From Moritella sp. JT01 (GTDB lineage: Bacteria; Pseudomonadota; Gammaproteobacteria; Enterobacterales; Moritellaceae), in contig NZ_LOCN01000024.1 in assembly GCF_001574435.1 (NCBI RefSeq), forward strand, positions 130,793-162,792: a DNA stretch of 32,000 bases, in the 5' to 3' direction. Positions 3,922 to 20,127 of the stretch are shown piece after piece. Made by a program: the position numbers and the translations under genes. Numbering within the stretch: the stretch's first letter is position 1; each line of letters begins with the position of its first letter. The notes below the pieces were generated by a model that was given only the letters and a program-made list of their open reading frames with translations, did no database searches and had not been told where the DNA came from.

Positions 3922-4156
3922 AACGAAAAGTATGAGATAGAAAACCATTCTTTTTATAGGGTGAAAGCATACTTGGAAAACTTGTATTACAGAGTGGTAA
4001 TTTAGATAATGTAATCAGCTGTTGAAGCGCAGATTTGTTTATTTATTATAGTGTTAAGTAAACTAACTGGTAATTTGAAATATATTTTAGAGATGGTTTT
4101 ATTGATAAAACTATTGTAATGAAAAGCTTATTTAAGCAATTTAAAAGGATGATAAA

Positions 4157-4636
4157 ATGCAAGCAAATACGTATTTAAATTATGAAGGGATTGCTGGTGA
4201 ATCTACTGCTAAAGAATTCCCAGATTTAATCACAGTATTATCGTTAGACTTCGGTACAACTCGTGTATTAAGTTCTTATACTGGTACTGCGCAAGATCGT
4301 GAAGCAAGTTCTGCAAAGCTTAATGATGTAACGATTACAAAATTACAGGATAAAGCGTCACCTGAGCTATTTAAAGAATCGACAATTGGTAAAGGTAAAA
4401 GTGCAATCTTCCACATTACTAAGCAGGGTAAAGGCATCGAAGAGATCATGAAAATTGAACTTACAGATGCAATGATCAGCGGCTACCAAGTTTCTGTTCA
4501 AGGTGACCGTCCTTTAGAAACGATTACAATTAGTTATACAGAAATGATGATGACTGTAACGCCGACTGATGATCAGAACAATGTACAAGCACCACTTGTA
4601 TATGGTTACAGCGGTGTAACTGGCCAACAAATGTAA
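4157..4636 (+). CDS. hcp: T6SS tube protein Hcp/TssD
   Basis: 159 aa. Hcp-like pattern (MQANTYLNYEGIAGEST...GKGKSAIFHITKQGKGIEEIMKIELTDAMISGYQVSVQGDRPLETITISYTEMMMTVTP) and position between clpV and vgrG. Confidence 0.9.
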   Translation: MQANTYLNYEGIAGESTAKEFPDLITVLSLDFGTTRVLSSYTGTAQDREASSAKLNDVTITKLQDKASPELFKESTIGKGKSAIFHITKQGKGIEEIMKIELTDAMISGYQVSVQGDRPLETITISYTEMMMTVTPTDDQNNVQAPLVYGYSGVTGQQM

Positions 4637-4712
4637 GTTTGCTGGTTTCACAGTTGGGTGACTTAAACAGTTGCCCAACTGTTTCGTTACACTTGTTCAG
4701 TTAGGAAATAAA

Positions 4713-6614: not shown

Positions 6615-6650
6615 ACTTATTTTATTATCTGGTTTTAGAAAAGGATTTTT

Positions 6651-6938
6651 ATGGGAATGCCAGCTGCAACAATGACGAGTTTTCATGTATGCCCTGCGTC
6701 AACTAGTCGTGTGCCTCATATCGGCGGTCCTGTGATCGTCGGTTCGCCTACTGTGCTGATTGGAGGGCTCCCTGCGGCAAGGTTGGGTGATAAAATGGTA
6801 TGTTGTGGACCACCAGACACGATTGTGAAGGGATCTGCGACGGTACTCATTAATGGTAAACCTGCTGCTCGAATGGGGGATGCCGCTGCACATGGTGGAA
6901 AAATTGTTGCAGGTGTACCAACCGTGTTAATAGGTTAG
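6651..6938 (+). CDS. PAAR-domain T6SS spike tip protein
   Basis: 95 aa glycine/proline-rich PAAR pattern: MPAATMTSFHVCPAS...GGPVIVGSPTVLIGGLPAARLGDKMVCCGPPDTIVKGSATVLINGKPAARMGD. Directly follows vgrG. Confidence 0.9.
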   Translation: MGMPAATMTSFHVCPASTSRVPHIGGPVIVGSPTVLIGGLPAARLGDKMVCCGPPDTIVKGSATVLINGKPAARMGDAAAHGGKIVAGVPTVLIG

Positions 6939-6946
6939 GGATTGAT

Positions 6947-8095
6947 ATGGATGTACAGTCTCTACTTTCGCTGATTGGCCAGGTTGAAACCTACTTTCAA
7001 CAGCGTGAACGTTGCTTTGACAATTGCTGGTCAACGCATTTACAACTCAAGCAACTTGACCAGCAAGCCGCAGGTTGGTTTTATTTATTAACGCAACAAC
7101 GTGATGCATTACCAACTTTAGATATAGATAAACCCACTTGGCTTGATTTATTATTAGCACAAACTGTCACCGAGTTAGTGGAACTCGTCAAACATCGCAC
7201 TGCGATTAATGGTAGCGATAAGGTTTGTCTGCAATGGTGGTCTCAACGTCATAATGGTGCTGCGTTAATTGCTGCGCTTATTACACTGGAAGCCACAGCA
7301 AAGCAATCATCAACACCGCAGAGTTTGTTAACACAAGAATTGTTATGTGTTATAGCCACTGCAACACCTGTCATTAGCGATCAATTCAATTTTCTTCATG
7401 TCGATAATATTAAGCCCTGTATTCATTTTATTAACCAACATTTGGGCAAAGCATCGCATATCTGGTCTAGTCACTTTTTAGACGCAGAAACGACAGAACC
7501 AAACAGTAAAAAGTTATTAGCCTTGAGCTTATGTCGAGGTACGTTTCCTGTGAACTTGCCTGTATTAAGCAGCGTGTTATTAGCAGACAAATCTTTATTG
7601 AAACAATATGTTGTTCAAGCCGATAGCCGTTTGGTGGGTGTGGTAATCAATGAATTGTCTGCCCATAACGACAATGCCAAATTTGTATTATCACTCATGG
7701 CATTTAGCGGATATAAGCAATTCATTCCTTGGTTGATCCAAATGTTAACCGCTGGTTTTTTAAGTCACGCTGCTTTTGCTGCTTTGCATACCTTGTTAGG
7801 GGCTGACTTTGAGGCGCAACTACCTGCTAAATTATATGGCGAGTACGAACCTGAATCTAAAGTAGACTTGCTGGTGGCGTTGAAACAGTCATTGAGTGAT
7901 TGGTGGATATTACACCGCGATGAATTCCCAGAGCGTATATTGGCGGGTAAACCAATTAATGAATCAAATATAGACTTTATCTGGCAGCAAGGAAACATTT
8001 CGCAATGCGAGGTTGCTGCTTATCACTATTGGTGCATGAAGGCTGAACATCGTTTAACGGATGCGCGTGGGTTTAATATCGGAGGTATGCTATGA
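6947..8095 (+). CDS. T6SS-associated protein of unknown function, alpha-helical repeat-like (possibly the TIGR02270-type family)
   Basis: 382 aa, 8 nt downstream of the PAAR gene and overlapping the next gene by 4 nt. Helical content with HEAT-like stretches (LLALSLCRGTFPVNLPVLSSVLLADKSLLKQYVVQADSRLVGVVINEL, LTAGFLSHAAFAALHTLLG). Family assignment is from memory of vgrG neighbourhoods. Confidence 0.6.
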   Translation: MDVQSLLSLIGQVETYFQQRERCFDNCWSTHLQLKQLDQQAAGWFYLLTQQRDALPTLDIDKPTWLDLLLAQTVTELVELVKHRTAINGSDKVCLQWWSQRHNGAALIAALITLEATAKQSSTPQSLLTQELLCVIATATPVISDQFNFLHVDNIKPCIHFINQHLGKASHIWSSHFLDAETTEPNSKKLLALSLCRGTFPVNLPVLSSVLLADKSLLKQYVVQADSRLVGVVINELSAHNDNAKFVLSLMAFSGYKQFIPWLIQMLTAGFLSHAAFAALHTLLGADFEAQLPAKLYGEYEPESKVDLLVALKQSLSDWWILHRDEFPERILAGKPINESNIDFIWQQGNISQCEVAAYHYWCMKAEHRLTDARGFNIGGML

Positions 8096-9045
8096 AATTT
8101 ACGGTAGTCGATTATGCCGGTGAGTTTGGTTGTCATCCTAATTCAATCGATTCTGTTTTGACTGGGCTAACACCGGATATAGCCTTAACAGAGCTTGCTG
8201 CATACGCGCAATTTAAGCCCGTTAAACAAGTCGCGTTTACTCAATCAGAATTGGCTGATAACCGTATTGACCGATGGCAAATATTGATTAACGCTGCGTT
8301 AGCAAACTCGAATTTAATTGAATTAAGTCAAGATGCCCCGGTATTGATGGTGCTGCCTTATGTCGATGCTAAATTTAGCCAGATGCAGAATCACTTGATT
8401 GATTCTGTGATTGATATTTTACCTGCGTGGACAAGGCACCCTAATAGTCATTATTACTTGCTGGGAAGTGCGGGGTTTTATCAGGCATTGCGCCAAGCGG
8501 ACGTATTACTCAGTGCAGGTATGGAACAGGTGGTGATTGGTGCAGTAGACAGTTGGGCGACAGAGCAAGGCTTGTTAAAGTTTATTAGCAAGTTCAGTGA
8601 TTATGGCTCTGTTGTATTACCTGCTTCAGAAGGGGCTGTCTTTATTGTGTTGTCTCGGCTGTCACAGGGTATAGAGGTGTTAGGTTGTGGTATGGATGTG
8701 GTGATTGATCGACATGCTCCAAGTGGCCTAATTGCAATTATTGCGGATCTTGTCGCTAAACAAACTCAACCTGTACAGTATTTGTCGCTGTGTCATTCCG
8801 GAGATGAAAGCTTAGATCAAGTCGGGCACAATACACTCTGTGCTATTTCAGGGCTTTACGATGCCAATACTCAGTTTTTAACGCCACAAATTACGCAAGG
8901 CGATATTGGCGCTTGCTATAGCTTATTACATTTTTTACTCAGTTATCATCATTATAAACAGCATATCTGGCAGGGAACTAGCCTACAAATTGATACGTCG
9001 TCGTTGCCTTATGTTGGCGCTGCGATTTATCGCTGGTGTGACTGA
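8092..9045 (+). CDS. Divergent thiolase/beta-ketoacyl-synthase-fold protein, T6SS-associated
   Basis: 317 aa. Contains ADVLLSAGMEQVVIGAVDSWATEQGLL, similar to the KAS region around GGVDS, and TQGDIGACYSLLHFLL, similar to the C-terminal GDIGAASG motif. Its start overlaps the stop of the preceding gene (ATGA). Confidence 0.6.
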   Translation: MKFTVVDYAGEFGCHPNSIDSVLTGLTPDIALTELAAYAQFKPVKQVAFTQSELADNRIDRWQILINAALANSNLIELSQDAPVLMVLPYVDAKFSQMQNHLIDSVIDILPAWTRHPNSHYYLLGSAGFYQALRQADVLLSAGMEQVVIGAVDSWATEQGLLKFISKFSDYGSVVLPASEGAVFIVLSRLSQGIEVLGCGMDVVIDRHAPSGLIAIIADLVAKQTQPVQYLSLCHSGDESLDQVGHNTLCAISGLYDANTQFLTPQITQGDIGACYSLLHFLLSYHHYKQHIWQGTSLQIDTSSLPYVGAAIYRWCD

Positions 9046-9437: not shown

Positions 9438-12086
9438 ATGAAGAAAACAATACTATATTTGTCTGCGAGTGCTATTTTCTCGTTGACGGCACATGCTGAT
9501 ATTTTAATTTCTGAATATATTGAAGGGAGTTCGTTTAATAAAGCCATTGAAATAGCGAATACAGGTAATGAACTTGTTACGTTAATCGGCTATGAATTAG
9601 CAAAGTCTGCGAACGGCAATAATGAATGGGGTAACCGTTTGCCGTTAGATGGCATCGCTATTGGCGCGGGCGATGTGTTTGTGTTGGCTCATAGCGATGC
9701 TAACGCCGATATTTTGTCTAATGCGGACATGACTGATACTAACGTGATTAGCTTTAATGGTGATGATCCTATCGCGTTATTATTGAACGGTGAGGTACAC
9801 GATATCATCGGTGTAATGGGCGATCAAAACTTTGGTAAAGACGTTACCTTAGTAAGACAAAGTCGCATTGCAGCTACTATATACAAGGAATCAGATTGGC
9901 TTGTTAAGGCAAAGAATAATAGCGATGGCTTAGGTTCGTTAGACTCATCTGGTGGCGGTTCTGATAATGGCGGGGAACCTGATACTATTATCGAATCGAC
10001 AATTATGGCACTTCAGGGAAATGGTTGGTCCTCTCCCTATACAGACCCTACAACTGAAAAATACATCTCAGACGAAACGTTCCTAATTGAAGGTATTGTC
10101 ACGGCCATTCAAGTTAATGCTTTAGGTAATGATTTACCACAAGGGTTCTTTATTCAAGATGAACTGGGCGATAATGATGTGACAACATCTGATGGTATTT
10201 ATGTCTCAGGTTTTATAACGGGTCTATCTATCGGAGATAAGGTTGCGGTTACTGGTAAAGTCAAAGAGGATTACGGCTGGACTAAGGTACAAGCAACAAA
10301 TGTAGACGTGATTGGTAATGGCACGATACCTGTAACAAATGTAAGGGCAGCAAGTGACGATGGTGATTTTGATTTTACATTAGAAAGACATGAAGGCATG
10401 TTCGTTAATATTGACCAACAAGCAGATATGTATGTTGCACGTACTTATGGCTTTGACTATGGCCCATTTCGTAACAACATGGTGATAGCCAAGTCTGGCC
10501 TTAACCTGCACCCCAATCAATTGAATATTCCCGCTTCTGCAGGTGCAAACTCGCAACGTGATGATAACGAAGATAGACGCATTATCGTGGAAACCATGAT
10601 TAAAGCGCCCAACGGTGCCCCTCTATGGTATCCAACATTCGGTCAAGATGATGGAACGGGTACCACAAACGACTATATACGTAATGGTGACTTAGTTAAC
10701 GGGTTAGAAGGTGTGCTAGGCTATTCTTACGGTGATTTTAGACTTTATATTACTAACCAAGCTGACGAATTTACTTTTATTCATGCGAACCCTCGATTAT
10801 CTCGTCCTGATGTTACAGGCGAGGGACTACGCATCGCCACTTTCAATGTTTTAAACTACTTTAATTCTCCTTTTGACGGAGCTGCGAACCCCACTGGGAC
10901 GAATCGTGGCGCTACGACTTATGCCGAATTTGAATTACAAGGCGATAAGATCGCGGCTGCTATTTTGGCTTTAGATGCAGATATTATTGGTTTAATGGAA
11001 ATCGAAAATAATGGTTTCGGTGATAGTTCTGCAGTCGCTTATTTGGTTGATAAAGTGAATTCATTATTACCAGACGTTGAGCAATATGCATTTGTCACAA
11101 GCCCTGATAGTGCGGGTTTTATTGGTAGTGATGCCATTGCTAATCAAGTGATTTACAAACCTTCGATGGTGACGCTTGATACTTACCGAATCATTAAGAT
11201 GCCTGAGCAACATGCAGGTCAAACGGGTAAAGAAAATGGTGACAACTATCAACGCGATGCGATAACGCCAACGTTTAAGGTTAATGACTCAGAAGAGTTG
11301 GTCACTGTCTCTGTTAATCATTTCAAATCTAAGGGGTCTACGTGTTGGGAAGATGTTGCTATTCAGAATGGCGAAGATGTTGGCTTACAAGGTTCTTGTG
11401 AGCACTTACGTGTTTCAGCGGCTCAACATTTGGGTAATGAAATGGCGTTAATTGCGGGTAATAAGCTGATCATTGGTGATCTTAATGCTTATGGGCAAGA
11501 AGACCCGCTACTTGTGTTAACAACCATGCCCGAAAACCACAGCGTGATGCCTGCACGTATGACATACATAGGTGACGAACCAATGGCGGGAAGTAATCCA
11601 AACGCTATCTCTGATTCATTTGGGTTTGTTAATGTGATCAGTGAACAGCATCCTGCCGCGTACAGTTATATTTATAACGACACTGTCGGTACACTCGATT
11701 ATATTTTAGTAGACAGTGAAACTGCATCAAAAGTGGTCGATGCAAATGTGTGGCATATCAATGCATCAGAATCAAAGTTGTTTGAGTATTCGTCAAAATA
11801 TACTGCAGACTTAGCTAAGTACCCTGATTTATTTAGATCGTCAGATCATGAACCCGCTATTGTTATTTTGGATGTATTAGGCGATGCTGACCAACCTGAC
11901 CAACCTGACCAACCTGACCAACCTGACCAACCAACGCCACCGTCTGGTACTGATGACACAACAAGTAACGATGATGACGAAGAAGAATGGTATGGCGGCT
12001 CTACTGGCTTATTATCACTTGGTTTCTTAACTGGTTTTGCTTTGTTTCGACGCTTCGGTCAACGATATATTAAGATGAACAGATAA
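9438..12086 (+). CDS. Secreted ExeM/NucH-like endonuclease/exonuclease/phosphatase-family nuclease with lamin-tail-like N-domain and GlyGly-CTERM-like sorting tail
   Basis: 882 aa. Signal peptide MKKTILYLSASAIFSLTAHA; LTD-like ISEYIEGSSFNKAIEIANTGN...GDVFVLAHS; OB-like DLPQGFFIQDELGDNDVTTSDGIYVSG; EEP motifs IATFNVLNYF, DIIGLMEIENNG, VNHFKSKGS, IIGDLNAY, DYILVD, SSDHEPAI; C-terminus WYGGSTGLLSLGFLTGFALFRRFGQR. Confidence 0.9.
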   Translation: MKKTILYLSASAIFSLTAHADILISEYIEGSSFNKAIEIANTGNELVTLIGYELAKSANGNNEWGNRLPLDGIAIGAGDVFVLAHSDANADILSNADMTDTNVISFNGDDPIALLLNGEVHDIIGVMGDQNFGKDVTLVRQSRIAATIYKESDWLVKAKNNSDGLGSLDSSGGGSDNGGEPDTIIESTIMALQGNGWSSPYTDPTTEKYISDETFLIEGIVTAIQVNALGNDLPQGFFIQDELGDNDVTTSDGIYVSGFITGLSIGDKVAVTGKVKEDYGWTKVQATNVDVIGNGTIPVTNVRAASDDGDFDFTLERHEGMFVNIDQQADMYVARTYGFDYGPFRNNMVIAKSGLNLHPNQLNIPASAGANSQRDDNEDRRIIVETMIKAPNGAPLWYPTFGQDDGTGTTNDYIRNGDLVNGLEGVLGYSYGDFRLYITNQADEFTFIHANPRLSRPDVTGEGLRIATFNVLNYFNSPFDGAANPTGTNRGATTYAEFELQGDKIAAAILALDADIIGLMEIENNGFGDSSAVAYLVDKVNSLLPDVEQYAFVTSPDSAGFIGSDAIANQVIYKPSMVTLDTYRIIKMPEQHAGQTGKENGDNYQRDAITPTFKVNDSEELVTVSVNHFKSKGSTCWEDVAIQNGEDVGLQGSCEHLRVSAAQHLGNEMALIAGNKLIIGDLNAYGQEDPLLVLTTMPENHSVMPARMTYIGDEPMAGSNPNAISDSFGFVNVISEQHPAAYSYIYNDTVGTLDYILVDSETASKVVDANVWHINASESKLFEYSSKYTADLAKYPDLFRSSDHEPAIVILDVLGDADQPDQPDQPDQPDQPTPPSGTDDTTSNDDDEEEWYGGSTGLLSLGFLTGFALFRRFGQRYIKMNR
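11887..11931 (+). repeat. Five perfect tandem copies of the 9-mer ctgaccaac, encoding the (DQP)n linker
   Basis: Direct reading: ctgaccaac x5, giving the DQPDQPDQPDQPDQP linker between the nuclease domain and the C-terminal tail. Confidence 0.95.
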
Positions 12087-12336: not shown

Positions 12337-13611
12337 ATGACAACTGTCACAGCACCAGCAAACTTTACCGAACTTGGCCTTATTTCACCTTTGTTAGCGC
12401 GATTAACTGAGCTGGAATACCAGCAGCCAACGCCTATTCAAGCACAAGCTATCCCAAGTGTATTAGCGGGACGTGACTTAATTGCAGGGGCAAATACCGG
12501 TTCGGGTAAAACAGCCGCTTTTGCATTACCTATGCTGCAGCACTTACATATAGAAAAGCAATCGGGTAGTACAAGCAGTAAAGGTAACTATGTTACAGGA
12601 CTGATTTTGGTACCTACCCGTGAACTCGCTAAGCAAGTTGCTGACAGCATTAAATCTTATGCAGTGCATTTTAACGGCGCGATTAAAACGGTTGCTGTTT
12701 TTGGTGGTGTATCAGTGAATACGCAAATGCTCGCATTACGCGGCGGCACTGATATTTTAGTTGCAACACCTGGTCGATTACTCGATTTGATTTCAAGTAA
12801 TGCTATTAAGCTAGATATGGTTAAAACCTTAGTGCTAGATGAAGCCGATCGTATGTTAAGTTTAGGCTTTACAGAGGAGTTATCTTCACTGTTAGCTTTG
12901 TTGCCAAAGAAAAAGCAAATTTTATTATTTTCAGCGACCTTCCCTGAAAAAGTACAGACTTTAACGCAAACTTTGCTTAACGACCCAATTGAAATTCAAT
13001 TGCAAAGTGCGGATGCAAGTACCTTAGTTCAGCGTGTTTTTACTGTTAACCAAGGTGAAAAAACAGCCGTTCTAGCGCATTTGATCAATGAAAATCAATG
13101 GCGACAAGTGCTTATTTTCGTTAATGCTAAACACAGCTGTAATCACTTAGCAGACAAACTTGCTAAGCGTGGCATTACATCACAAGTGTTTCATGGCGAT
13201 AAAGCGCAAGGCGCTCGTATTCGTACGCTTGACGGATTTAAATCTGGCGAAATTCAAGTGCTGATTGCAACTGATATCGCAGCCCGTGGTTTAGATATCG
13301 AAAAACTACCAGTGGTGATCAACTTTGACTTACCAAGAAGTCCATCTGACTACATGCACCGTATTGGTCGAAGTGGCCGTGCTGGTGAAGTGGGCTTAGC
13401 ATTATCGCTTATCGACCATGAAGATTATCATCATTTCAGCGTCATCGAAAAGAAGAACAAGATCCGACTCGAGCGTGAACAAGTAGCGGGTTTTGAAGTA
13501 GATGAAACTATCGAAGCATATATACCGATGGCTCCACCTGAAGGCAGTGGTAAGAAAAAACGTAAAAATACAGCACCAGTAAATGCAGATATCTGGTTGA
13601 GAAATAATTAA
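12337..13611 (+). CDS. DEAD-box ATP-dependent RNA helicase (RhlE-like)
   Basis: Motifs FTELGL, PTPIQAQAIP, AGANTGSGKTAAFALP, PTRELAKQV, VLDEADRMLSLGF, LFSATF, IFVNAKHSCNHLADKL, ATDIAARGLDI, HRIGRSGRAG. The track start is 12238. The ATG at 12337 (MTTVTAPANFTELGL) fits better. Confidence 0.93.
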   Translation: MTTVTAPANFTELGLISPLLARLTELEYQQPTPIQAQAIPSVLAGRDLIAGANTGSGKTAAFALPMLQHLHIEKQSGSTSSKGNYVTGLILVPTRELAKQVADSIKSYAVHFNGAIKTVAVFGGVSVNTQMLALRGGTDILVATPGRLLDLISSNAIKLDMVKTLVLDEADRMLSLGFTEELSSLLALLPKKKQILLFSATFPEKVQTLTQTLLNDPIEIQLQSADASTLVQRVFTVNQGEKTAVLAHLINENQWRQVLIFVNAKHSCNHLADKLAKRGITSQVFHGDKAQGARIRTLDGFKSGEIQVLIATDIAARGLDIEKLPVVINFDLPRSPSDYMHRIGRSGRAGEVGLALSLIDHEDYHHFSVIEKKNKIRLEREQVAGFEVDETIEAYIPMAPPEGSGKKKRKNTAPVNADIWLRNN

Positions 13612-13889
13612 CCTACGCAGAAGCTAAATCTAGTATATAAGAGTAGGTGTCGCGCAACGGCATCTACTTTACAACACTTCAACGGCCTTTCAGATTCACT
13701 TGGTTTTTCCACTGGTTCTATCGTGTTAAATGTTTCAGTAATTCCCATGGAAAACTTCAAGCAGTAATATTTAACTTACATCATACTTAGACCATCATGC
13801 ATATTGTGTTAACTATGGTGTTCGCTTTAAGATTTACGTATGTTGTATTTCAGCAGGAATGTTCGGGTGCTAGAGTTGGTTTAAATAAG

Positions 13890-13915
13890 ATATACCCCAA
13901 CGAGTTGGGGTATAT
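13890..13915 (-). terminator. Near-perfect inverted repeat, likely terminator of the minus-strand motor-like operon
   Basis: ATATACCCCAA (13890-13900), CGAG loop, TTGGGGTATAT (13905-13915); 11-bp stem located 28 nt past the 13943 stop. The downstream T-tract on the minus strand (cttattt) is weak. Confidence 0.55.
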
Positions 13916-13942
13916 GACTTATGAGCGTTAATTCAGAAGGTT

Positions 13943-14608
13943 TTAAGGCCTACGAATGTAAATGACAGCGCGACGGTTTGCTGCTCTAGCTGCGTGTACA
14001 TCCTTAGTTGTACTTAATTCGACTTTGGGTCTTGAGTCAGCATAAGCAACTGCTTTCAGTTCCTTTTTTTCAACACCTTGTTGCTCAAGTCGTTTAACAA
14101 TTACAACGGCTCGAGCGCTCGATAACTCCCAGTTTGATGGGTAGAGTAGGGTATTGATTGGAATGTCGTCAGTATGACCTTCAATTTCAATCAGCTGGTT
14201 TTTGACATTTGAGTTATTAATGACGTCAGCAATTTGATCAATCACAGGTAACATCTGTGATTTGATCTCCGCATCACCAGAGCCATAAAGGGCCTTATTA
14301 GAAAACTCAATCTTGATACCTTTTTTATCAATACTGACATCGACTAATTCAGTCATGTTATTTTTTTCAAGTACACTCGTAATGTCTTTTTTCAATTCAC
14401 TAAAAGGCATAGAGGTCTTTGTGGTGCTGGTTATCGATGTGATACCTTGCTCGAGCTCTTGTAAACGACCTTCATTTACTTCTGATACACTGACCAGAAT
14501 AACAAAGAATGCGAGCAATAACGTGATCGCATCACTGTATGTGACTAACCAACCATTATCGTCTTGATCGTTTAATTGCGAGGTAGACGGAGGTCTTTTT
14601 AATCTCAT
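13943..14608 (-). CDS. MotB-like stator protein with OmpA/peptidoglycan-binding domain
   Basis: 221 aa. N-terminal single TM with NGWLVTYSDAITLLLAFFVILVSVSEV (MotB-type YxD, Asp26), and C-terminal OmpA-like IEIEGHTDDIPINTLLYPSNWELSSARAVVIVKRL. Confidence 0.88.
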   Translation of the reverse strand: MRLKRPPSTSQLNDQDDNGWLVTYSDAITLLLAFFVILVSVSEVNEGRLQELEQGITSITSTTKTSMPFSELKKDITSVLEKNNMTELVDVSIDKKGIKIEFSNKALYGSGDAEIKSQMLPVIDQIADVINNSNVKNQLIEIEGHTDDIPINTLLYPSNWELSSARAVVIVKRLEQQGVEKKELKAVAYADSRPKVELSTTKDVHAARAANRRAVIYIRRP

Positions 14609-15396
14609 TTACCTAACTCCGTCATTTTATGTTTGGGCGCTAGGTAACAGTTTAATCTGTCTTGAATATACAAATTATCTTTATTTTCTGTTATCAACTC
14701 AAAACCAGCTGTTATAATTTGACGCTCGAAGAAAATGCGGTGCTGTCTTCTTGCGATGCGAATTGCAGATGGCTTAAAGAGTAGCTGTGCTAACAATGTA
14801 CCGTACAATGTCGTTAATAGAGCAATGGCAAGGCCTTTGCCTAATTCAGACAAATCACCACTCATATTATCAAGCATGATAATTAAGCCAATTAAAGTAC
14901 CAACCATACCAAAACTAGGGGCATATATTGAAAGTGTATTAATGACATTTACGTGTTCATTTCTACGTTGAAAATCACTTTCATTCGTGTCGTCAAGCAT
15001 ACTAGAAAGAACTTTCGATTTATAACCTGTACCCAATAACTCCATTGCATTGATAATGAAATCATCCTTTTTTTCTTTCTCAGTCAAACTATTTTCTAAC
15101 GCTGTAATACCTTGCTTTTTATATATATCATTCCATTCGACAATACGATTAACAAGTTGCTTTAATTGTTTGTGTTGGTTCTTTTCGTCAAGCAGATTAA
15201 CCATCATTTCGGTAAATGCGGCCCAAATCAAACGAAACGAGTAACTGATTAAGGTGGCACCAAAAGTTCCGCCAAGCACGATAAGTAAACTGAATAGGCT
15301 TACAAATATCAGGTAATTATCAGTGCTTTTAAAAATTGCGTAAACGAATAAACCGACTGCACCTAATATGCCTACGAAAGTACTAATTGAAATCAT
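14605..15396 (-). CDS. MotA/TolQ/ExbB-family proton channel protein, MotA-like
   Basis: 263 aa, four hydrophobic segments with MotA-type topology, including SIYAPSFGMVGTLIGLIIMLDNMS and LGKGLAIALLTTLYGTLLAQLLFKP. Has a large cytosolic loop between TM2 and TM3. Overlaps the MotB-like ORF by 4 nt. Confidence 0.88.
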   Translation of the reverse strand: MISISTFVGILGAVGLFVYAIFKSTDNYLIFVSLFSLLIVLGGTFGATLISYSFRLIWAAFTEMMVNLLDEKNQHKQLKQLVNRIVEWNDIYKKQGITALENSLTEKEKKDDFIINAMELLGTGYKSKVLSSMLDDTNESDFQRRNEHVNVINTLSIYAPSFGMVGTLIGLIIMLDNMSGDLSELGKGLAIALLTTLYGTLLAQLLFKPSAIRIARRQHRIFFERQIITAGFELITENKDNLYIQDRLNCYLAPKHKMTELGK

Positions 15397-15399
15397 TTA

Positions 15400-17220
15400 T
15401 TATCCCTTTAAATCATTCATAGTGAAACGACCTGAATTGAGCAACTGTCTTACTGCTACAACAATGTCTTGTTGCGCTCGAGCTATGCTTTCTTGATCTG
15501 GCACTTCGAGTTGTTTTATCTCAAATAGCAGCGCTGATTTTAATTTAACAGGCAGATCTGTTAATGCATGTTGAATTTGCTCTTCTTCAAAAGAGTGCAA
15601 ACCAATGGCCACTATTTTACGCTCAAGGTTACGCAATGCATCGGCAAGTACTAACGTTGGTGTCTTCAATACATCATCAAAGCAATAAAATTTCTCACGA
15701 ATTTTTATGTAGGTTTCTGGGGAGTTTTCTTTAAGCTGCGTTAATAATGCTTGCTGCTCGTTTAGCGGTAAACGATCTAACATTCCAAGTAACAACTCAG
15801 TGCCATCTGCATTGATGTGCTCGAAGTCTGGTACATGCCGTGATTTCTTGGCTAGACGCTGTGCAATCTCGTTAAACGTTGCGACTGGGAAGTTATGGAA
15901 CTGTCCAATTTCAACTGCAACTAATGCACGCTCAGTAGGGCTTAATTGTTTTAATACAGCCGTTGATTTTAATTCTTCAAGCTGTATTAAAACTAACGCT
16001 TTTATTCTTGGTGGTTCTTCTTTAATTAACCAAGATATTTGATTGTCGGTTAATTTTTGAAGGTAAGAAAATGGTTTATGTGTAACTGCTTCAGCATCAT
16101 TTTCTATGTGAGTCAATAACTGTAGTAGATCATTTAGACTAGTGATCAAAGCAGGGTAATCTTTTTGCTCTTGCTTAAGGTAGTTTATATATTGTGGAAT
16201 TTCATGCACAAGATTAGGGAAAATAGAAGTGAATATCGAACGACCTAATGTTTGATATGAAGCTGCTAACAGTGGCATATTTTGCTCGTTTAAAGCGATG
16301 TTAGCTACGGTGGTTTGGATTTTGTCCGGAGATGCTAAACTCAAGCTGATAATTCGCTGACGAAGTGCTTGTACATCTTGTTGCTGTTGCATTAATAATG
16401 GTTCAGCGGATGGTGGTGTACTATCTATTTCTTCGCGAGGCTCTTTCTTATTTGTATTCCGTAACAATAATACTAATAGAAGCATAATCAAAACAGATAA
16501 TAATATAATTAGCCAATTGATCCAATCTTGATACCAAGGCGCTTGTGTTAAATCGTCAAGATCTTGAACAGTCGTTGTTGGAAAATTAGTTGCTGTGATC
16601 GTTAATGTATCCCCTCTAAAAGGGTTGTAATTTAACTTTTCAGTAAGTAAATTTCTTAGGAATACAACTTGTTCGTTATTAACCGTGTTAGTCACTAATA
16701 GCTTAGTGTGAAGTACTCGCAATTTTTTTTCTGACGTGTCCTTACTTCTTGGTTGATTGGCTTGTTTTACTTGATTTTCGAGTAACTCAGCTTGTTTGGT
16801 AATTGTTTGCTCCATCTCTGCAATTTGAGCTTTTGCCTGCGCTACTACTGGGTTGACAGCAAGTTCTTTAGGCGTATTACTTGGTAAAGCTGGTAAGTCA
16901 AATTCATCTTCAGTTTCAGGTGTTAATGCTGAAGGCGTTTGATTACTCTGTTCTGGACTTTGCACTTGTTCCGGAGTGGTATGTGAGGCTTGAGGTTGTC
17001 CGTTATTATTCGTTAAATCTTGAGCCCTAGGCGTCGTTAATACTTCAGCTCTAATCGAAAGTATAAAGCTATCATCACCGAGATAGGCTTCGATATCTCT
17101 ATTCAGCCTTTCTTCTAAGCCTTGACTTAACTCGAGTGATTCAATTTCATTTGCCATAACCAGTGGTGTGAGCACAAGTAATATAGCTAATAATAAAGAT
17201 TTAAAAATAGTCATAATCAT
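15400..17220 (-). CDS. FliF(RBM3-TM2)-FliG(middle+C-terminal)-like fusion protein
   Basis: 606 aa. Signal peptide (1-23); residues ~33-63 GLEERLNRDIEAYLGDDSFILSIRAEVLT and ~166-213 KLRVLHTKLLVTNTVNNEQVVFLRNLLTEKLNYNPFRGDTLTITATNF resemble the two halves of the FliF third ring-building motif. This is followed by APWYQDWINWLIILLSVLIMLLLVLLLR (FliF PWWQ-TM2-like). Residues ~390-460 resemble FliG-M and ~472-602 resemble FliG-C. Confidence 0.75.
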   Translation of the reverse strand: MIMTIFKSLLLAILLVLTPLVMANEIESLELSQGLEERLNRDIEAYLGDDSFILSIRAEVLTTPRAQDLTNNNGQPQASHTTPEQVQSPEQSNQTPSALTPETEDEFDLPALPSNTPKELAVNPVVAQAKAQIAEMEQTITKQAELLENQVKQANQPRSKDTSEKKLRVLHTKLLVTNTVNNEQVVFLRNLLTEKLNYNPFRGDTLTITATNFPTTTVQDLDDLTQAPWYQDWINWLIILLSVLIMLLLVLLLRNTNKKEPREEIDSTPPSAEPLLMQQQQDVQALRQRIISLSLASPDKIQTTVANIALNEQNMPLLAASYQTLGRSIFTSIFPNLVHEIPQYINYLKQEQKDYPALITSLNDLLQLLTHIENDAEAVTHKPFSYLQKLTDNQISWLIKEEPPRIKALVLIQLEELKSTAVLKQLSPTERALVAVEIGQFHNFPVATFNEIAQRLAKKSRHVPDFEHINADGTELLLGMLDRLPLNEQQALLTQLKENSPETYIKIREKFYCFDDVLKTPTLVLADALRNLERKIVAIGLHSFEEEQIQHALTDLPVKLKSALLFEIKQLEVPDQESIARAQQDIVVAVRQLLNSGRFTMNDLKG

Positions 17221-17222
17221 CC

Positions 17223-17786
17223 TTATTTATCACCCATTTTAGTTAATGCGTTCTGAACATCTTCGTATGATGGATCAAGTTCTAATGCTTTATTCCATGC
17301 GGCTCTTGCATTGGCATAGTTTTTCATTCTGTAATTCACGCTACCTTTAAGTGCGTGAGTTTGTGCAAGACTAGGCGCTGCTTTAATCGCATCTTCGACT
17401 TTAACAAGAGCCTCTGGGTAATCTTTATCTACAGCAAGTTGTTGAGCCGCAGATAATAAGCGTAATGCCTTACCTATATCTTCTGATGCTGGTTCTTCTT
17501 CATCTAATATGTCTTCGAACAGCTCGAGGTCGTCTTGATTGTTGATAAGTTCTGCTGCATTTATTTCCTCATCGTTTTCGATCTCGAATATAATATCGCT
17601 ACCAAGTACGTTAAATGCGACTTTTGATTCGTAGTAAGTTCCCTTATGTCGAAGGGATAATACGCCTAGTTCTAATGGGTTACCTGCTGCATCTGTAATT
17701 GCTTGTACATGATTATCATGATTATCTTTTTTAGCACTACATGCGGTAAGGGTGATAAGCATGCATAAAGTAATTATCTGTTTCAT
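17223..17786 (-). CDS. TPR-containing lipoprotein
   Basis: 187 aa. Lipobox LITLTAC at the N-terminus. TPR-like AHTLKGSVNYRMKNYANARAAWNKALELDPSYEDVQNAL. Confidence 0.8.
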   Translation of the reverse strand: MKQIITLCMLITLTACSAKKDNHDNHVQAITDAAGNPLELGVLSLRHKGTYYESKVAFNVLGSDIIFEIENDEEINAAELINNQDDLELFEDILDEEEPASEDIGKALRLLSAAQQLAVDKDYPEALVKVEDAIKAAPSLAQTHALKGSVNYRMKNYANARAAWNKALELDPSYEDVQNALTKMGDK

Positions 17787-17795
17787 ATTCTGTCC

Positions 17796-18920
17796 TTAGA
17801 GACGGAAGCTAAGTGTAATATCGAAGCTTATGCCACCAAATGTAATCTCTGATGCATAGCCTGATTTAGAACCTGCATCGATATTATGTTTAGGGACGCT
17901 AATGATGCCTAGTTCTAACGAACCATTATCGGGGAAGCTAATTTCAGTACCTACTCTAAACGCAACGGCATGGTAATTTTTGAATAATATTTGACCAATA
18001 CCGATATAAGGTTTGAATTTAATTTTTTGGTTCCAATCTGGCATTAATAATAAAATTCGACCTTCGATGTTTACACCGGCTAAGTTTATAATGTCTCTAT
18101 TTTCAAGGTTTGTGATCGCATCAAAGATAATTGCGTAATCAAGGTAAGGTGTGAAACCTGAAGATTTATTGTTACGCACACCAATTGTTGTGAACTTATC
18201 TACAATCGTAGCTTTACCTGTGCTTGTGTTTAATCGTTTAGCTTCAAGACCCCAAACACCTAAAGTAACTGCCCAGTCTGATTTTTTTGAAAAACCAATA
18301 TCCGAATTTATCTCAACGGTTTCAGATATATTTTTAGCCCATATCACATCCATCGTTTTTGCATTAACAAGTTTTAGTTGCAGATCGTAAACGTCATCAT
18401 GAACTGATGCATCCCACATTAGAAAAGCATTCGCACGAATGTCTTTCGCCATTGTTTGTAATTCTTTATTTGTTTCGGCGCTATGTTTCACACGCACACT
18501 GCCATTTTTTACAGTGATATATGTTTTAGAGCATTGAACACATGTTTTAACTCGTATGTCGTTGTCAATAAGGCTTAATGATAATTTATTTTCGATTAAG
18601 CTTAATGTTGTTTTGTCTAGTTGGTGCTGTAATCTATCACCGGTATGGTAGAGGGCAACTGTTCTAATATTTTGATCAGAAAGTTCCCAGGGAAGTTCTC
18701 CCCAGATATCTTTACGGTCAAAAATATTTAAAAATACAAGGTATGATTGGCTAGGGGTAATATTCGATGGCGTTAAAGCTTGATGAGTTATTTCTGATTG
18801 TTCGTCATTGTCGGTAATTTCTGCGGAATTGCTGAATGGGATATATGCGATTGAAATTATACAAAAAGAAAAAAGATATAAAAAGAATGATTTTTTTATA
18901 TCAAAAAATGAACGTGTCAT
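17796..18920 (-). CDS. Secreted/outer-membrane protein, FlgO/CsgG/TolB-N-like N-terminal half and beta-barrel-like C-terminal half
   Basis: 374 aa. Signal-like hydrophobic N-terminus. Central KELQTMAKDIRANAFLMWDASVHDDVYDLQLKLVNAKTMDVIWAKNIS resembles FlgO/LpoB-type folds. C-terminal alternating strands (FTPYLDYAIIFDAI...KIKFKPYIGIGQILFKNYHAVAFRVGTEISF...EITFGGISFDITLSFRL) end in an aromatic-rich strand typical of OM barrels. Confidence 0.5.
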   Translation of the reverse strand: MTRSFFDIKKSFFLYLFSFCIISIAYIPFSNSAEITDNDEQSEITHQALTPSNITPSQSYLVFLNIFDRKDIWGELPWELSDQNIRTVALYHTGDRLQHQLDKTTLSLIENKLSLSLIDNDIRVKTCVQCSKTYITVKNGSVRVKHSAETNKELQTMAKDIRANAFLMWDASVHDDVYDLQLKLVNAKTMDVIWAKNISETVEINSDIGFSKKSDWAVTLGVWGLEAKRLNTSTGKATIVDKFTTIGVRNNKSSGFTPYLDYAIIFDAITNLENRDIINLAGVNIEGRILLLMPDWNQKIKFKPYIGIGQILFKNYHAVAFRVGTEISFPDNGSLELGIISVPKHNIDAGSKSGYASEITFGGISFDITLSFRL

Positions 18921-19242
18921 GGAATGCCTTTTTTATATTTTAATAAGTATATTAATGTATTAGTGTATCTATTTTCAGATTTTTAAACTGTAAGTAATAT
19001 GTAAGCTGACCGTAATGGAGTGTAAATAATCAGGAGAGGGGGCTGTAAATTACACCTGCCTAGGAAATTCAATCATATTAAACTTATTGATTAATTCAGG
19101 CATAAGGCCGATCAAGGTGATACATAGCATTGGCTAATATGAATCGTGCTTTATACCAATTTTTCAATTGAGGTATCTCCTTTAAACGTGTTGAAAGTGG
19201 TATTATTCTGCAATTCATTTACTAATTATTGAAGGGTGTTTA

Positions 19243-20127
19243 ATGTCTGATGTTGTAATTCATCAAGTACGACCAACTAAGGTTCTTTTTACTCAAGGAA
19301 TCATGCAATCTTTAACTCAAGTACAGTGGGTTGAGCAAACAGACACCAGTACTTATGTGGTTACTGAAAAAACACCGTTTCACCCGGTAAGTCATATCTG
19401 GCCAGATCATCCTGCGGATAAAGGGTTTTTAGTATTTAACGGTAAGCAATACACAGTCACAGATTGCGTGACGGGTGCTTTTGATATTGAAAATAGTAAG
19501 CTATATAAAGGTACAGATATACCAGTAAAACGTGGCGAGCCCGGCTGGTATTTTGTTGTCTTACACGAATTAGAATTAGACATGGCATTAAACATTAATG
19601 ATGCTGTTGAATTAGTTGTTGATGCAAGGTATCAAACGGCGTTAAGTCGGGGGCACAGTGCAGGGCATTTGGCTTCTTATGCGTTAAATAAGGTTTTAGA
19701 ACAAGGTTACTGGCGTAAAGATGCATCACGCAAAGATGTATTAAATAATCGCGACTTTCATTCATACGCACAAACATTAAGTTTGGTCTCTGAAAACAAA
19801 TCGACGGACAGTTACCGTTTAGGTAAAACGTTGAAAAAACGAGGCCTTAATGTGGCAGAAATACTTGCAGATCTATCACTCATTGAAGCGAGGGTTAATG
19901 ACGTACTGGCAACCTGGCTTGCGACTAACGCATCTGTTGTGATGAAGTGTGAAGGTGATACGCTTACAGACTCTCGCTTTTGGTGTTGCGATTTAGGTAT
20001 TGGAGAAAGTATCACTATGCCTTGTGGAGGCTCACATGTGCAAAGTTTGACTGAATATAAAGATATAACGATTGAGTTAACATTTAAGTCTGACCAAGAA
20101 CTAGAGATGATCACAAAGGCTAATTAA
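19243..20127 (+). CDS. Alanyl-tRNA editing / AlaX-like (threonyl/alanyl second additional domain) protein
   Basis: 294 aa. Zn-site-like HSAGH (RGHSAGHLASYAL) and C-x3-H (MPCGGSHVQSLTEY) motifs characteristic of the ThrRS/AlaRS SAD superfamily. N-terminal VQWVEQTDTSTYVVTEKTPFHP resembles AlaX domain entry. Confidence 0.8.
   Translation: MSDVVIHQVRPTKVLFTQGIMQSLTQVQWVEQTDTSTYVVTEKTPFHPVSHIWPDHPADKGFLVFNGKQYTVTDCVTGAFDIENSKLYKGTDIPVKRGEPGWYFVVLHELELDMALNINDAVELVVDARYQTALSRGHSAGHLASYALNKVLEQGYWRKDASRKDVLNNRDFHSYAQTLSLVSENKSTDSYRLGKTLKKRGLNVAEILADLSLIEARVNDVLATWLATNASVVMKCEGDTLTDSRFWCCDLGIGESITMPCGGSHVQSLTEYKDITIELTFKSDQELEMITKAN

What the first reader, a model, noticed from the sequence alone, without database searches (positions are those of the whole stretch)
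13943..18920. Candidate undescribed system: a stripped-down rotary motor operon (MotA + MotB + FliF-FliG-like fusion + TPR lipoprotein + secreted barrel-like protein) with no other flagellar genes in the window
Five minus-strand genes are packed with spacers of 9, 2 and 3 nt and one 4-nt overlap, so they look like one transcript. Two encode a MotA/MotB-like ion-channel stator. A third encodes a protein reading as FliF RBM3/TM2 joined to FliG middle and C-terminal domains, i.e. the torque-receiving side. The remaining two are envelope proteins (TPR lipoprotein; FlgO/CsgG-like plus OM-barrel-like) that could link the inner-membrane machine to the outer membrane. No filament, hook, rod, export apparatus, FliM/FliN or chemotaxis genes are visible nearby. 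The gene set implies an ion-gradient-driven, trans-envelope force generator built from flagellar parts and repurposed. I know of no characterised system with this composition, but cannot search for one.
Basis: partly seen in the sequence, partly recalled or inferred. Interest (0 to 1): 0.93.

Follow-up and report, generated by a model that had tools for sequence, protein, structure and literature searches.

The report
Flagellum-free rotor-stator envelope motor operon
A five-gene operon in this Moritella genome encodes the rotor and stator parts of the flagellar motor plus two outer-membrane proteins but no flagellum parts, and the same gene set recurs in bacteria that never make flagella, which suggests an undescribed ion-driven machine in the cell envelope.

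Summary
Five minus-strand genes (13943-18920) have gaps of 9, 2 and 3 nt and one 4-nt overlap.

They encode:
- a PomA-like MotA and a MotB with plug and peptidoglycan-binding domain;
- a 606-aa protein made of signal peptide, FliF RBM3-like domain, one membrane helix and a complete FliG (N, M and C domains);
- a TPR lipoprotein;
- a 374-aa protein with an LpoB/TolB-N-like domain and an OmpA/OmpX-like beta-barrel.

The five genes are co-conserved in about 30 Oceanospirillales genomes, where neighbours are housekeeping genes and never flagellar. A distant subfamily carries them in another order (FliFG, barrel, TPR, MotA, MotB). Some of those contigs are from Bacteroidota, a non-flagellated phylum, and one is from an Elusimicrobia MAG.

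Stator channel residues and the rotor-stator charge pair are kept. The FliM-binding EHPQR motif is lost. A periplasmic LPGLP motif is family-specific.

PADLOC, Rfam and nine literature searches found no description.

Best reading: a self-contained non-flagellar rotor-stator machine coupled to the outer membrane, output unknown. The parts and their co-conservation are shown; rotation, ring formation and function are inferred.

The parts
17796..18920 (-). 374-aa outer-membrane protein. It has a signal peptide, a periplasmic LpoB/TolB-N-like alpha/beta domain (about residues 58-201, with invariant C127 and C130 as CxxC), and a C-terminal OmpA/OmpX-like beta-barrel (about residues 216-374) that ends in the ...LTLGxR[F/L] signature.
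   Evidence: No Pfam or NCBIfam hit. AF2 model has mean pLDDT 75, with the barrel near 90. Foldseek against PDB hits LpoB C-domain 4q6l (1e-5), TolB, GNA1162 and PelBC for the N-domain, and OmpA, NspA, OmpX and OmpW for the C-domain. Invariant residues come from alignments A2 and A3.
17223..17786 (-). 187-aa TPR lipoprotein. Lipobox L-T-A-C with Cys17 and Ser at +2, so probably sorted to the outer membrane by the E. coli rule. An acidic linker is followed by two C-terminal TPR repeats (about residues 110-186).
   Evidence: TPR_2 1.6e-7 and TPR_1 6e-6. PDB hits are generic TPR proteins only. Orthologues in all loci begin with a signal peptide and a Cys.
15400..17220 (-). 606-aa rotor-like fusion ('FliFG'). 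Signal peptide (1-23); periplasmic RBM3-like domain (33-210) with a disordered, helix-containing insertion; membrane helix (about 232-254); cytoplasmic full FliG (about 285-603).
   Evidence: FliG_M 7e-12, FliG_C 9e-13, YscJ_FliF_C 0.1. Relatives carry PF08345. The A1 profile hits 3hjl FliG at 1e-21 and 6scn FliF at 1.4e-6. phmmer aligns 3hjl residues 10-329. Vibrio FliF 417-491 aligns over the end of RBM3 plus TM2. AF2 secondary-structure order. Foldseek returns FliG only.
16882..16896 (-). LPALP (residues 109-113). This is the family-wide LPx[LIVM]P motif, usually LPGLP, inside the otherwise disordered periplasmic insertion of the rotor protein. It is a candidate docking peptide for the TPR lipoprotein.
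   Evidence: Invariant in A1 and among the few invariant columns of the very diverse A4 alignment. Present in 86 of 127 family representatives, against 3.6% of shuffled sequences. The link to the TPR protein is inference.
15496..15552 (-). Torque-helix equivalent of FliG_C (residues 557-575, PVKLKSALLFEIKQLEVPD). K559 corresponds to E. coli FliG R281 and E567 to D289.
   Evidence: Column-by-column alignment to Vibrio, Thermotoga and Aquifex FliG. K559, E567, K569 and E572 are invariant in A1. A positive residue at the R281 position is kept in at least 80% of both subfamilies.
14605..15396 (-). 263-aa MotA/PomA-like stator A subunit.
   Evidence: MotA_ExbB 1e-19. NCBIfam PomA 8e-41 and MotP 4e-40, both below the equivalog cut-offs. 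Best PDB match is PomA 8bri at 8e-26. Two lysines align with PomA R88 and K89 and a glutamate with E96. The positions of PomA P151, T158, T185/T186 and P199 are conserved.
13943..14608 (-). 221-aa MotB-like stator B subunit. It has a membrane helix with the channel Asp (D26 in WLVTYSDAITLLLAFF), a plug, and an OmpA-like peptidoglycan-binding domain. Its start overlaps the motA stop by 4 nt.
   Evidence: MotB_plug 7e-14 and OmpA 6e-14. NCBIfam MotD 4e-49, below cut-off. PDB matches are MotB and PomB. The Asp is conserved in both subfamilies.
13890..13915 (-). Terminator-like hairpin (11-bp stem) 28 nt after the motB stop. This is the probable 3' end of the operon.
   Evidence: sequence read. 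The T-run is weak (CTTATTTAAA).
18921..19242 (-). 322-nt upstream intergenic region, which presumably holds the promoter. It is shared divergently with the 294-aa gene at 19243.
   Evidence: Sequence read. The sigma-70 consensus scan found no site there and no Rfam element was found. The promoter is not identified.

Best explanation
The operon encodes a self-contained, non-flagellar rotor-stator machine of the cell envelope.

Shown:
- It encodes a complete PomAB/MotAB-type ion channel stator.
- It encodes one protein that fuses the ring-building end of FliF (RBM3-like domain plus one membrane helix) to a whole FliG.
- These sit with an outer-membrane-type TPR lipoprotein and an outer-membrane barrel protein that carries a periplasmic LpoB-like domain.
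- The five genes travel together across phyla, including non-flagellated Bacteroidota.

Inferred:
- The fusion protein assembles through its RBM and FliG domains into an inner-membrane ring with a cytoplasmic FliG face.
- MotA5B2-type units are anchored to peptidoglycan by MotB and driven by Na+ or H+ flux. In Moritella the channel residues look PomA-like.
- The stator pushes on the conserved charged torque helix and turns or strains the ring.
- The ring's periplasmic insertion (a long helix plus the conserved LPGLP peptide) contacts the TPR lipoprotein and the LpoB-like/barrel protein. Inner-membrane ion energy is thereby delivered to, or scaffolded from, the outer membrane.

The output is unknown. 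It could be movement or remodelling of an outer-membrane or surface component. The loss of the FliM-binding motif and the absence of RBM1/RBM2 imply no C-ring switch and no type III export gate.
For: - Component identities.
- Operon packing and terminator-like hairpin.
- Co-conservation in gammaproteobacteria: 36 genome loci in Oleispira, Bermanella, Thalassolituus, Oceanobacter, Marinicellulosiphila, Bacterioplanoides and others. In the 30 loci with enough flank, MotA is adjacent in 30, MotB in 29, TPR in 28 and the barrel protein in 30. Flanks are fumarase, CTP synthase, enolase, ftsB and ispDF, and they differ between lineages.
- Wider family: 145 representatives of 50%-identity clusters at E<1e-30; 127 of the best 150 are 540-790 aa with the same signal peptide, periplasmic domain, membrane helix and FliG_M/C architecture.
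- Distant loci keep FliFG, a 355-395 aa barrel-family protein, TPR, MotA and MotB. hhalign links the barrel proteins at 94-95% probability.
- Hosts: locus L056 carries an RpoC closest to Flavobacteriaceae and Porphyromonas enzymes, 1955 and 1917 bits against at most 1464 for Proteobacteria. PorP_SprF is adjacent in L042. One member is from an Elusimicrobia MAG.
- Functional residues: the FliG R281 and D289 equivalents, the MotA R88/K89/E96 equivalents, the channel Pro and Thr residues and the MotB Asp are conserved.
- Purifying selection against Moritella sp. 5: dN/dS 0.07-0.49 for the five genes.
- No published description. One paper only remarks that rotor proteins in non-motile genomes 'could have an alternative function' (PMC12199754).
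Against: - No experiment or complex prediction shows ring assembly, rotation, or contact between the inner- and outer-membrane parts.
- The AF2 model of the 606-aa protein is mediocre (mean pLDDT 62.5, pTM 0.28).
- The E. coli FliG K264, D288 and R297 equivalents are not conserved.
- In the Bacteroidota-type subfamily the MotA loop charges are poorly aligned or variable.
- Some family members (L040, L041, L044) have a TPR gene but no adjacent MotAB.
- Moritella and the Oceanospirillales hosts are flagellated (from general knowledge), so a flagellum-linked role in these hosts is not excluded.
- dN/dS of the two outer-membrane genes is relatively high (0.34-0.49), measured at low divergence.
- The literature library omits most subscription journals.
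Confidence: 0.55

Rival explanations
1. A non-rotary energy transducer of the Tol-Pal/Ton type. The MotAB-like channel cycles and pulls on the FliFG protein, which acts like TolA or TonB as a single-pass membrane adaptor. This transmits force or a conformational signal to the TPR lipoprotein and the outer-membrane barrel for envelope maintenance or transport, with no large rotating ring.
For: The gene set parallels Tol-Pal: a channel pair, a single-pass inner-membrane protein with a long periplasmic helix, a TolB-N/LpoB-like domain, a TPR protein like CpoB, and an OmpA-like peptidoglycan binder. The loci sit in conserved housekeeping neighbourhoods. The periplasmic insertion is largely disordered plus one long helix.
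Against: MotA is of the flagellar PomA/MotP type (8e-41), while TolQ and ExbB models score only E 0.01-0.04. The partner is a full FliG with a conserved torque helix, and the periplasmic domain is an RBM, a ring-forming fold. In Tol and Ton the transducer engages the channel through its membrane helix, not through a cytoplasmic FliG domain (general knowledge).
Confidence: 0.2
2. An accessory module of the host's ordinary polar flagellum, encoded away from the flagellar clusters. It could be an alternative rotor/stator set, or a decoy ring that sequesters or regulates stator units.
For: Moritella and the Oceanospirillales hosts are polar flagellates (general knowledge). The stator is PomA-like. 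TPR and LpoB-like periplasmic proteins recall the stator scaffolds of polar motors such as MotX/MotY, FlgT/O/P and PflA/B (from memory, not tested).
Against: No flagellar gene is adjacent in any of about 85 loci. The system occurs on Bacteroidota contigs. The fusion lacks RBM1/RBM2 and so cannot house an export gate. The EHPQR FliM-binding motif is lost. The system brings its own MotAB.
Confidence: 0.12
3. A MotAB-based anti-phage or stress-sensing system of the Zorya kind, in which the stator-like channel senses envelope perturbation and the other proteins act as effectors.
For: MotB matches ZorB models (1e-19), as any MotB would. In Moritella the operon lies next to a T6SS cluster.
Against: ZorA matches are negligible (E about 1e-3, 0 domains). 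There is no ZorC/ZorD-like helicase or nuclease, and no PADLOC hit for the other three proteins. MotA is 263 aa with no long tail. The genomic position is stable among housekeeping genes across genera, rather than in variable islands.
Confidence: 0.05
4. A decaying remnant of a lost secondary flagellar system.
For: The parts derive from flagellar families. Rotor proteins without filaments have been noted in non-motile genomes (PMC12199754).
Against: All five ORFs are intact. Synteny is kept at about 30% identity across orders and phyla. Functional residues are conserved. dN/dS is below 1. The family has acquired its own conserved motifs, LPGLP and KEExxRIKALV.
Confidence: 0.03

Closest known systems
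Flagellar rotor-stator core (FliF MS-ring, FliG, MotAB/PomAB), including FliF-FliG fusion proteins (e.g. PDB 8z4d)
   Same: FliG N, M and C domains with a charged torque helix. A FliF RBM3-like domain, the TM2 equivalent and the shared RGD motif. A PomA-like MotA with the loop charges. MotB with channel Asp, plug and OmpA-like domain.
   Different: - No FliF TM1, RBM1 or RBM2.
- A cleavable signal peptide instead of TM1.
- The beta-collar is replaced by a disordered segment, a helix and the LPGLP motif.
- The EHPQR FliM-binding motif is lost.
- No FliM/FliN, export gate, rod, hook or filament genes are linked.
- Two dedicated outer-membrane proteins are present.
- It occurs in Bacteroidota.
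- Stator scores fall below the NCBIfam equivalog cut-offs.
Periplasmic stator scaffolds of polar or high-torque flagellar motors (MotX/MotY, FlgT/FlgO/FlgP, PflA/PflB)
   Same: TPR or Sel1-type repeat proteins and outer-membrane-associated lipoproteins accompany a PomAB-like stator. This resemblance is from memory.
   Different: No sequence or fold match to these proteins was obtained. The TPR hits are generic, and the N-domain of the 374-aa protein matches LpoB, TolB-N, PelC and GNA1162 rather than FlgO. Here the proteins are encoded with the rotor and stator in one operon, with no flagellum.
Tol-Pal system
   Same: An ion-driven inner-membrane channel pair, a single-pass inner-membrane protein reaching into the periplasm, a TolB-N-like fold, a TPR protein, and an OmpA-like peptidoglycan-binding domain. 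It is a trans-envelope energy coupling system encoded in one operon.
   Different: The channel is of the MotA/PomA class, not TolQ. The inner-membrane partner carries FliG and an RBM, not TolA domains. There is no beta-propeller TolB and no Pal lipoprotein.
T9SS/gliding motor (GldLM/PorLM with PorK/N ring and PorP)
   Same: A 5:2-type inner-membrane motor coupled through the periplasm to outer-membrane lipoprotein and barrel components. One Bacteroidota-like locus has a PorP_SprF barrel gene immediately downstream.
   Different: There are no GldL/GldM homologues. Torque would be taken up on the cytoplasmic side by FliG, not by a periplasmic GldM shaft.
Zorya defence system (ZorAB)
   Same: A MotAB-like channel used outside the flagellum.
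   Different: No ZorA tail and no ZorC/D effectors. PADLOC gives only generic MotB similarity.

Membership tests
Bacterial flagellar motor (as a system) | MotA/MotB-type stator with channel Asp, plug and peptidoglycan-binding domain | tested here: met
Bacterial flagellar motor (as a system) | FliG that couples to a FliM/FliN C-ring through the EHPQR motif | tested here: not met
   EHPQ is replaced by EEPP in the window. Only the Glu is conserved in both subfamilies. No FliM or FliN gene occurs in any locus.
Bacterial flagellar motor (as a system) | Full FliF MS-ring (two membrane helices, RBM1-RBM2-RBM3) housing a type III export gate | tested here: not met
   Only the RBM3-like part and one membrane helix are present, and the N-terminus is a signal peptide. 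No export-gate genes lie nearby.
Bacterial flagellar motor (as a system) | Genetic linkage or co-occurrence with rod, hook and filament genes | tested here: not met
   None in the window or in about 85 related loci. Genome-wide co-occurrence could not be tested.
FliG family | FliG N, M and C armadillo-type domains | tested here: met
   Pfam FliG_M and FliG_C above cut-off. phmmer alignment to 3hjl residues 10-329. Foldseek gives full-length FliG hits, and single domains reach TM 0.84-0.88.
FliG family | Charged torque-helix residues facing MotA (E. coli K264, R281, D288, D289, R297) | tested here: inconclusive
   The R281 equivalent (K559) and D289 equivalent (E567) are conserved. The K264, D288 and R297 equivalents are not.
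FliG family | NCBIfam equivalog score for FliG (TIGR00207 cut-off 226.7 bits) | tested here: not met
   60.1 bits.
MotAB/PomAB flagellar-type stator (FIT clade of PMC12505986) | Four-membrane-helix A subunit with an extended cytoplasmic torque-generating loop carrying the R/K and E charges, plus conserved prolines | tested here: met
   Alignment to PomA 8bri over residues 3-245. Two lysines align with PomA R88 and K89 and a glutamate with E96, and the P151 and P199 equivalents are present. Phylogenetic placement in the clade was not computed.
MotAB/PomAB flagellar-type stator (FIT clade of PMC12505986) | Equivalog-level identity to PomA, MotP or MotA | tested here: not met
   Best score is PomA at 140 bits against a cut-off of 341.
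Zorya | ZorA with a long C-terminal tail, plus ZorC/ZorD or other effectors | tested here: not met
   MotA is only 263 aa.
Tol-Pal / Ton | TolQ/ExbB-class channel with a TolA/TonB transducer | tested here: not met
   TolQ E 0.042 and ExbB E 0.013, against PomA 8e-41. No TolA or TonB domain was found.
RBM (ring-building motif) proteins | Alpha-beta-beta-alpha-beta fold that oligomerises into rings | tested here: inconclusive
   The fold order is present in the AF2 model at modest confidence, and the profile matches FliF RBM3. Oligomerisation cannot be tested with these tools.

The most novel reading that the evidence does not exclude
This is the first non-flagellar machine built on the FliG-MotA rotor-stator interface. 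It would be a widespread five-protein rotary motor (Gammaproteobacteria, Bacteroidota, Elusimicrobia) whose FliF-RBM3/FliG ring is spun by PomAB-like units. Its torque would be delivered through a periplasmic LPGLP-bearing extension to an outer-membrane TPR-lipoprotein and barrel complex, powering an unknown surface or outer-membrane process. Because it has a rotor and a stator but no type III export apparatus, it could also represent, or descend from, the pre-flagellar rotary module. That would bear directly on how the flagellar motor originated.
Probability: 0.4. Interest if true: 0.95.

Novelty: new variant of a known kind. Interest (0 to 1): 0.85.

Why it matters
FliG and the FliG-MotA torque interface are regarded as exclusive to the flagellum. 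All other known relatives of the stator (ExbBD, TolQR, GldLM, AglRQS, ZorAB) work without a FliG rotor.

A conserved operon that pairs a flagellar-type stator with a FliF/FliG fusion and outer-membrane partners, in lineages that include non-flagellated Bacteroidota, would have three consequences:
- It would add a new class of ion-driven envelope machine.
- It would explain 'orphan' rotor and stator genes in non-motile genomes.
- It would provide a minimal five-protein system for studying rotor-stator mechanics.

It would also make the long-standing question of how the flagellar motor arose testable: was a rotor-stator module ever independent of type III secretion? The test is a phylogeny of these FliG, FliF and MotA domains against their flagellar counterparts.

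Tried and rejected
- **Zorya or other defence system:** PADLOC gave only generic MotB/ZorB similarity. Rejected.
- **Regulatory RNA or riboswitch upstream:** Rfam E-value scan of 13550-19350 gave only chance-level eukaryotic hits.
- **Promoter:** the sigma-70 scan found nothing in the 322-nt upstream region, and the region overall had fewer hits than shuffles. By eye there was no convincing sigma-54 or sigma-28 site. The promoter is left unidentified.
- **Specific identity for the TPR protein** (MotX, PflA/B, CpoB): only generic TPR matches.
- **Metagenome scan with a 30-sequence pan-family alignment:** Repeated with one subfamily.
- **Taxon assignment through cluster look-ups of neighbouring genes:** returned no organism names. 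Replaced by the RpoC comparison.
- **Literature:** nine full-text searches and four papers read gave no description of the system.
- **Relic hypothesis:** rejected on synteny, intact residues and dN/dS.

Full report
**1. Observation**

The ORF list shows five consecutive minus-strand ORFs:
- 18920..17796 (374 aa)
- 17786..17223 (187 aa)
- 17220..15400 (606 aa)
- 15396..14605 (263 aa)
- 14608..13943 (221 aa)

They are separated by 9, 2 and 3 nt, with one 4-nt overlap, exactly as reported. There is no terminator-like site inside the block on that strand. An 11-bp hairpin follows the last stop codon at 13915-13890. The 322-nt upstream region has no recognisable sigma-70 site or Rfam element.

The window is from a Moritella strain: the 606-aa and 374-aa proteins are 100% identical to Moritella sp. 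JT01 entries. The other window ORFs scanned are T6SS ClpV/VgrG (an Hcp-sized ORF lies between them), a nuclease, a DEAD-box helicase, an MFS transporter, DUF2797 and ThrRS. None is flagellar.

**2. The parts**

*Stator.* The 263-aa protein is MotA_ExbB (1e-19). Its best NCBIfam models are PomA (8e-41) and MotP (4e-40), both below equivalog cut-offs; TolQ and ExbB score only E 0.01-0.04.
- It aligns to Vibrio PomA (8bri) over residues 3-245.
- Two lysines align with PomA R88 and K89 and a glutamate with E96. The prolines and threonines of the ion path (PomA P151, T158, T185/T186, P199) are conserved.
- The threonine pattern resembles Na+-type stators. That reading is from my own knowledge and was not tested.

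The 221-aa protein has MotB_plug and OmpA domains and the channel Asp (D26).

*Rotor-like protein.* The 606-aa protein has a signal peptide, a periplasmic domain, one membrane helix (about 232-254) and a cytoplasmic FliG.
- Pfam gives FliG_M 7e-12 and FliG_C 9e-13.
- phmmer aligns residues 285-603 with residues 10-329 of full-length Aquifex FliG.
- A 10-sequence family profile (A1) hits FliG structures (1e-21) and Salmonella FliF residues 234-532 (6scn, 1.4e-6).
- The single sequence aligns with Vibrio FliF 417-491, the end of RBM3 (including the shared RGD) plus TM2.
- The AF2 model is of modest quality (pLDDT 62.5). Its periplasmic part has the RBM order helix 33-47, strand 52-64, [insertion 65-162], strand 163-176, helix 182-196, strand 206-210.
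- The 13 Foldseek PDB hits with E<=0.001 are all FliG, and single domains superpose at TM 0.84-0.88.

So the protein is a natural fusion of truncated FliF (RBM3, TM2, tail) with whole FliG.

*Outer-membrane parts.* The 187-aa protein has a lipobox (LTAC, Ser at +2) and two C-terminal TPR repeats. The 374-aa protein has no family hit. Its AF2 model (pLDDT 75) shows two domains:
- an N-terminal domain matching LpoB, TolB-N, GNA1162 and PelC folds;
- a C-terminal small barrel matching OmpA, NspA, OmpX and OmpW.

It also has an invariant CxxC pair and the terminal ...LTLGxRF barrel signature.

**3. Conservation**

*Gammaproteobacteria.* A genome scan found 36 loci in Oceanospirillales/Pseudomonadales genera at about 31% identity. 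All five genes are adjacent in the same order. Among the 30 loci with enough flank, MotA is adjacent in 30, MotB in 29, TPR in 28 and the barrel protein in 30. Flanks are housekeeping genes and change between lineages, so the cassette itself is the conserved unit.

*Wider family.* An exhaustive profile search found 145 representatives of 50%-identity clusters at E<1e-30. Of the best 150, 127 are 540-790 aa with the same architecture. Contexts of distant members repeat the set in a different order, FliFG, 355-395-aa protein, TPR, MotA, MotB. Extra barrels (BBP2_2, PorP_SprF) are sometimes present.

A metagenome scan with one distant subfamily gave 41 more loci with the same five genes. The middle protein is recognised as the barrel family by hhalign (94-95% probability) and by a second-iteration HMM (E 1e-79 to 1e-110). 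A few members (L040, L041, L044) keep the TPR neighbour but have no adjacent MotAB.

*Hosts.*
- Locus L056 carries an RpoC that scores 1955 and 1917 bits against the Flagellimonas taeanensis and Porphyromonas gingivalis enzymes, and at most 1464 against proteobacterial ones. Four related loci (L058, L063, L065, L066) have 1433-aa ORFs in the same upstream position. These contigs are inferred to be from Bacteroidota, a phylum without flagella (general knowledge).
- Another member is from an Elusimicrobia MAG.

**4. Residue-level signals**

- In both subfamilies the position of E. coli FliG R281 stays positive, and the D289 position is mostly Glu.
- K559, E567, K569 and E572 are invariant in the window's subfamily.
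- The K264, D288 and R297 equivalents are not kept.
- The EHPQR FliM-binding motif is lost.
- The stator channel residues are conserved in both subfamilies. The MotA loop charges are clear in the gamma subfamily and unclear in the other.
- A short LPx[LIVM]P motif (LPGLP; LPALP at 109-113 here) in the disordered periplasmic insertion is one of the few invariant features. It occurs in 86 of 127 representatives, against 3.6% of shuffled sequences.
- dN/dS against Moritella sp. 5 is 0.49, 0.34, 0.18, 0.07 and 0.27 for the five genes in operon order (control genes 0.04-0.09).

**5. Interpretation**

What is shown: a complete stator, a FliF/FliG rotor-type fusion and two outer-membrane-type proteins form a unit conserved across phyla, outside flagellar clusters.

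What is inferred:
- The fusion forms a ring.
- The stator pushes on its torque helix.
- The periplasmic insertion, perhaps through LPGLP bound by the TPR domain, links to the outer-membrane components.

The missing RBM1/RBM2 and EHPQR motif argue against an export gate and a switch complex. The output is unknown.

Rivals are a Tol-like non-rotary transducer (0.2), a flagellar accessory in flagellated hosts (0.12), a Zorya-like defence system (0.05; PADLOC negative) and a relic (0.03).

**6. Comparison and novelty**

The closest known entity is the flagellar rotor-stator core, including engineered or solved FliF-FliG fusions (8z4d). The system fails several defining features of the flagellar motor: the full MS-ring, C-ring coupling, and linkage to axial and export genes.

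It resembles Tol-Pal and the T9SS motor only in overall logic. Nine literature searches and four papers read found no description. The nearest statement is a remark that rotor proteins in non-motile genomes may have another function (PMC12199754). The stator phylogeny paper PMC12505986 does not mention such a partner.

I rate it a new variant of a known kind: a flagellar-type rotor-stator used without a flagellum. There is a substantial chance that, as a system, it is categorically new.

Caveats:
- No experimental data.
- A moderate-quality model for the key protein.
- Two fold libraries were unavailable.
- The literature library excludes most subscription journals.

Noticed in passing
window 16882-16896 (residues 109-113 of the 606-aa protein); also alignments A1, A4, A5: An LPx[LIVM]P motif (mostly LPGLP) sits in an otherwise disordered, Q/P/S/T-rich periplasmic insertion. 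It is among the very few invariant features of the whole FliFG family: 86 of 127 representatives against 3.6% of shuffled sequences. It is a possible ligand of the co-encoded TPR domain.
   Followed up: partly
window 18531-18542 (C127 and C130 of the 374-aa protein): An invariant CxxC pair lies in the LpoB-like periplasmic domain of the barrel protein across all 32 aligned homologues. It may be a disulfide or a metal site. The model is poorly confident around it (pLDDT below 50 for residues 128-146).
   Followed up: no
window 1324-9045: A type VI secretion cluster: ClpV-like AAA+ (865 aa), a 159-aa Hcp-sized ORF, VgrG (647 aa), then two ORFs with no Pfam hit (382 and 317 aa) that could be an effector/immunity pair. 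The same block lies next to the operon in Moritella sp. 5 (L087), where a PAAR gene is also called.
   Followed up: partly
window 9438-12086: An 882-aa secreted protein with a Lamin-tail domain and an endonuclease/exonuclease/phosphatase domain, a DQP repeat run, and a C-terminal GG-S-T-G plus hydrophobic helix plus RRF tail. The tail looks like a GlyGly-CTERM (rhombosortase) sorting signal, as in Vibrio Xds nuclease (from memory). This gene is absent from the syntenic region of Moritella sp. 5 (L087).
   Followed up: no
window 19243-20127: A 294-aa ORF transcribed divergently from the operon has no Pfam hit at 1e-5. It contains SxGHSAGH and PCGGSH motifs reminiscent of AlaX/ThrRS-type editing domains. 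It is conserved (96% identity) at the same position in Moritella sp. 5.
   Followed up: no
L039, L042, L043, L045 and L046-L084 versus window and L001-L038: Gene order differs between subfamilies: barrel-TPR-FliFG-MotA-MotB in the Moritella/Oceanospirillales type, and FliFG-barrel-TPR-MotA-MotB elsewhere. Some lineages add a further outer-membrane barrel (BBP2_2 in L039, PorP_SprF in L042) or fuse TPR repeats to MotB (L042, 372 aa; the 400-aa MotB of L043 is similarly extended).
   Followed up: partly
L040, L041, L044: Some FliFG family members (646-777 aa) keep a TPR or Sel1 neighbour but have no MotA/MotB within 8 kb. Either the stator is encoded elsewhere or these variants work differently.
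   Followed up: no
window 17215-17220: The database annotation of the 606-aa protein (P0001, 604 aa) starts at the third codon (MTIFK...). The true start, and hence the 2-nt versus 8-nt spacer to the TPR gene, is ambiguous.
   Followed up: no
L056, L065, L066 (about 6500-8700): In several Bacteroidota-type loci a LytTR-domain protein (278 aa) and two small ORFs (205 and 197 aa) lie between rpoC and the FliFG gene. They could be a local regulator, but they are not conserved in the sister loci L058 and L063.
   Followed up: no
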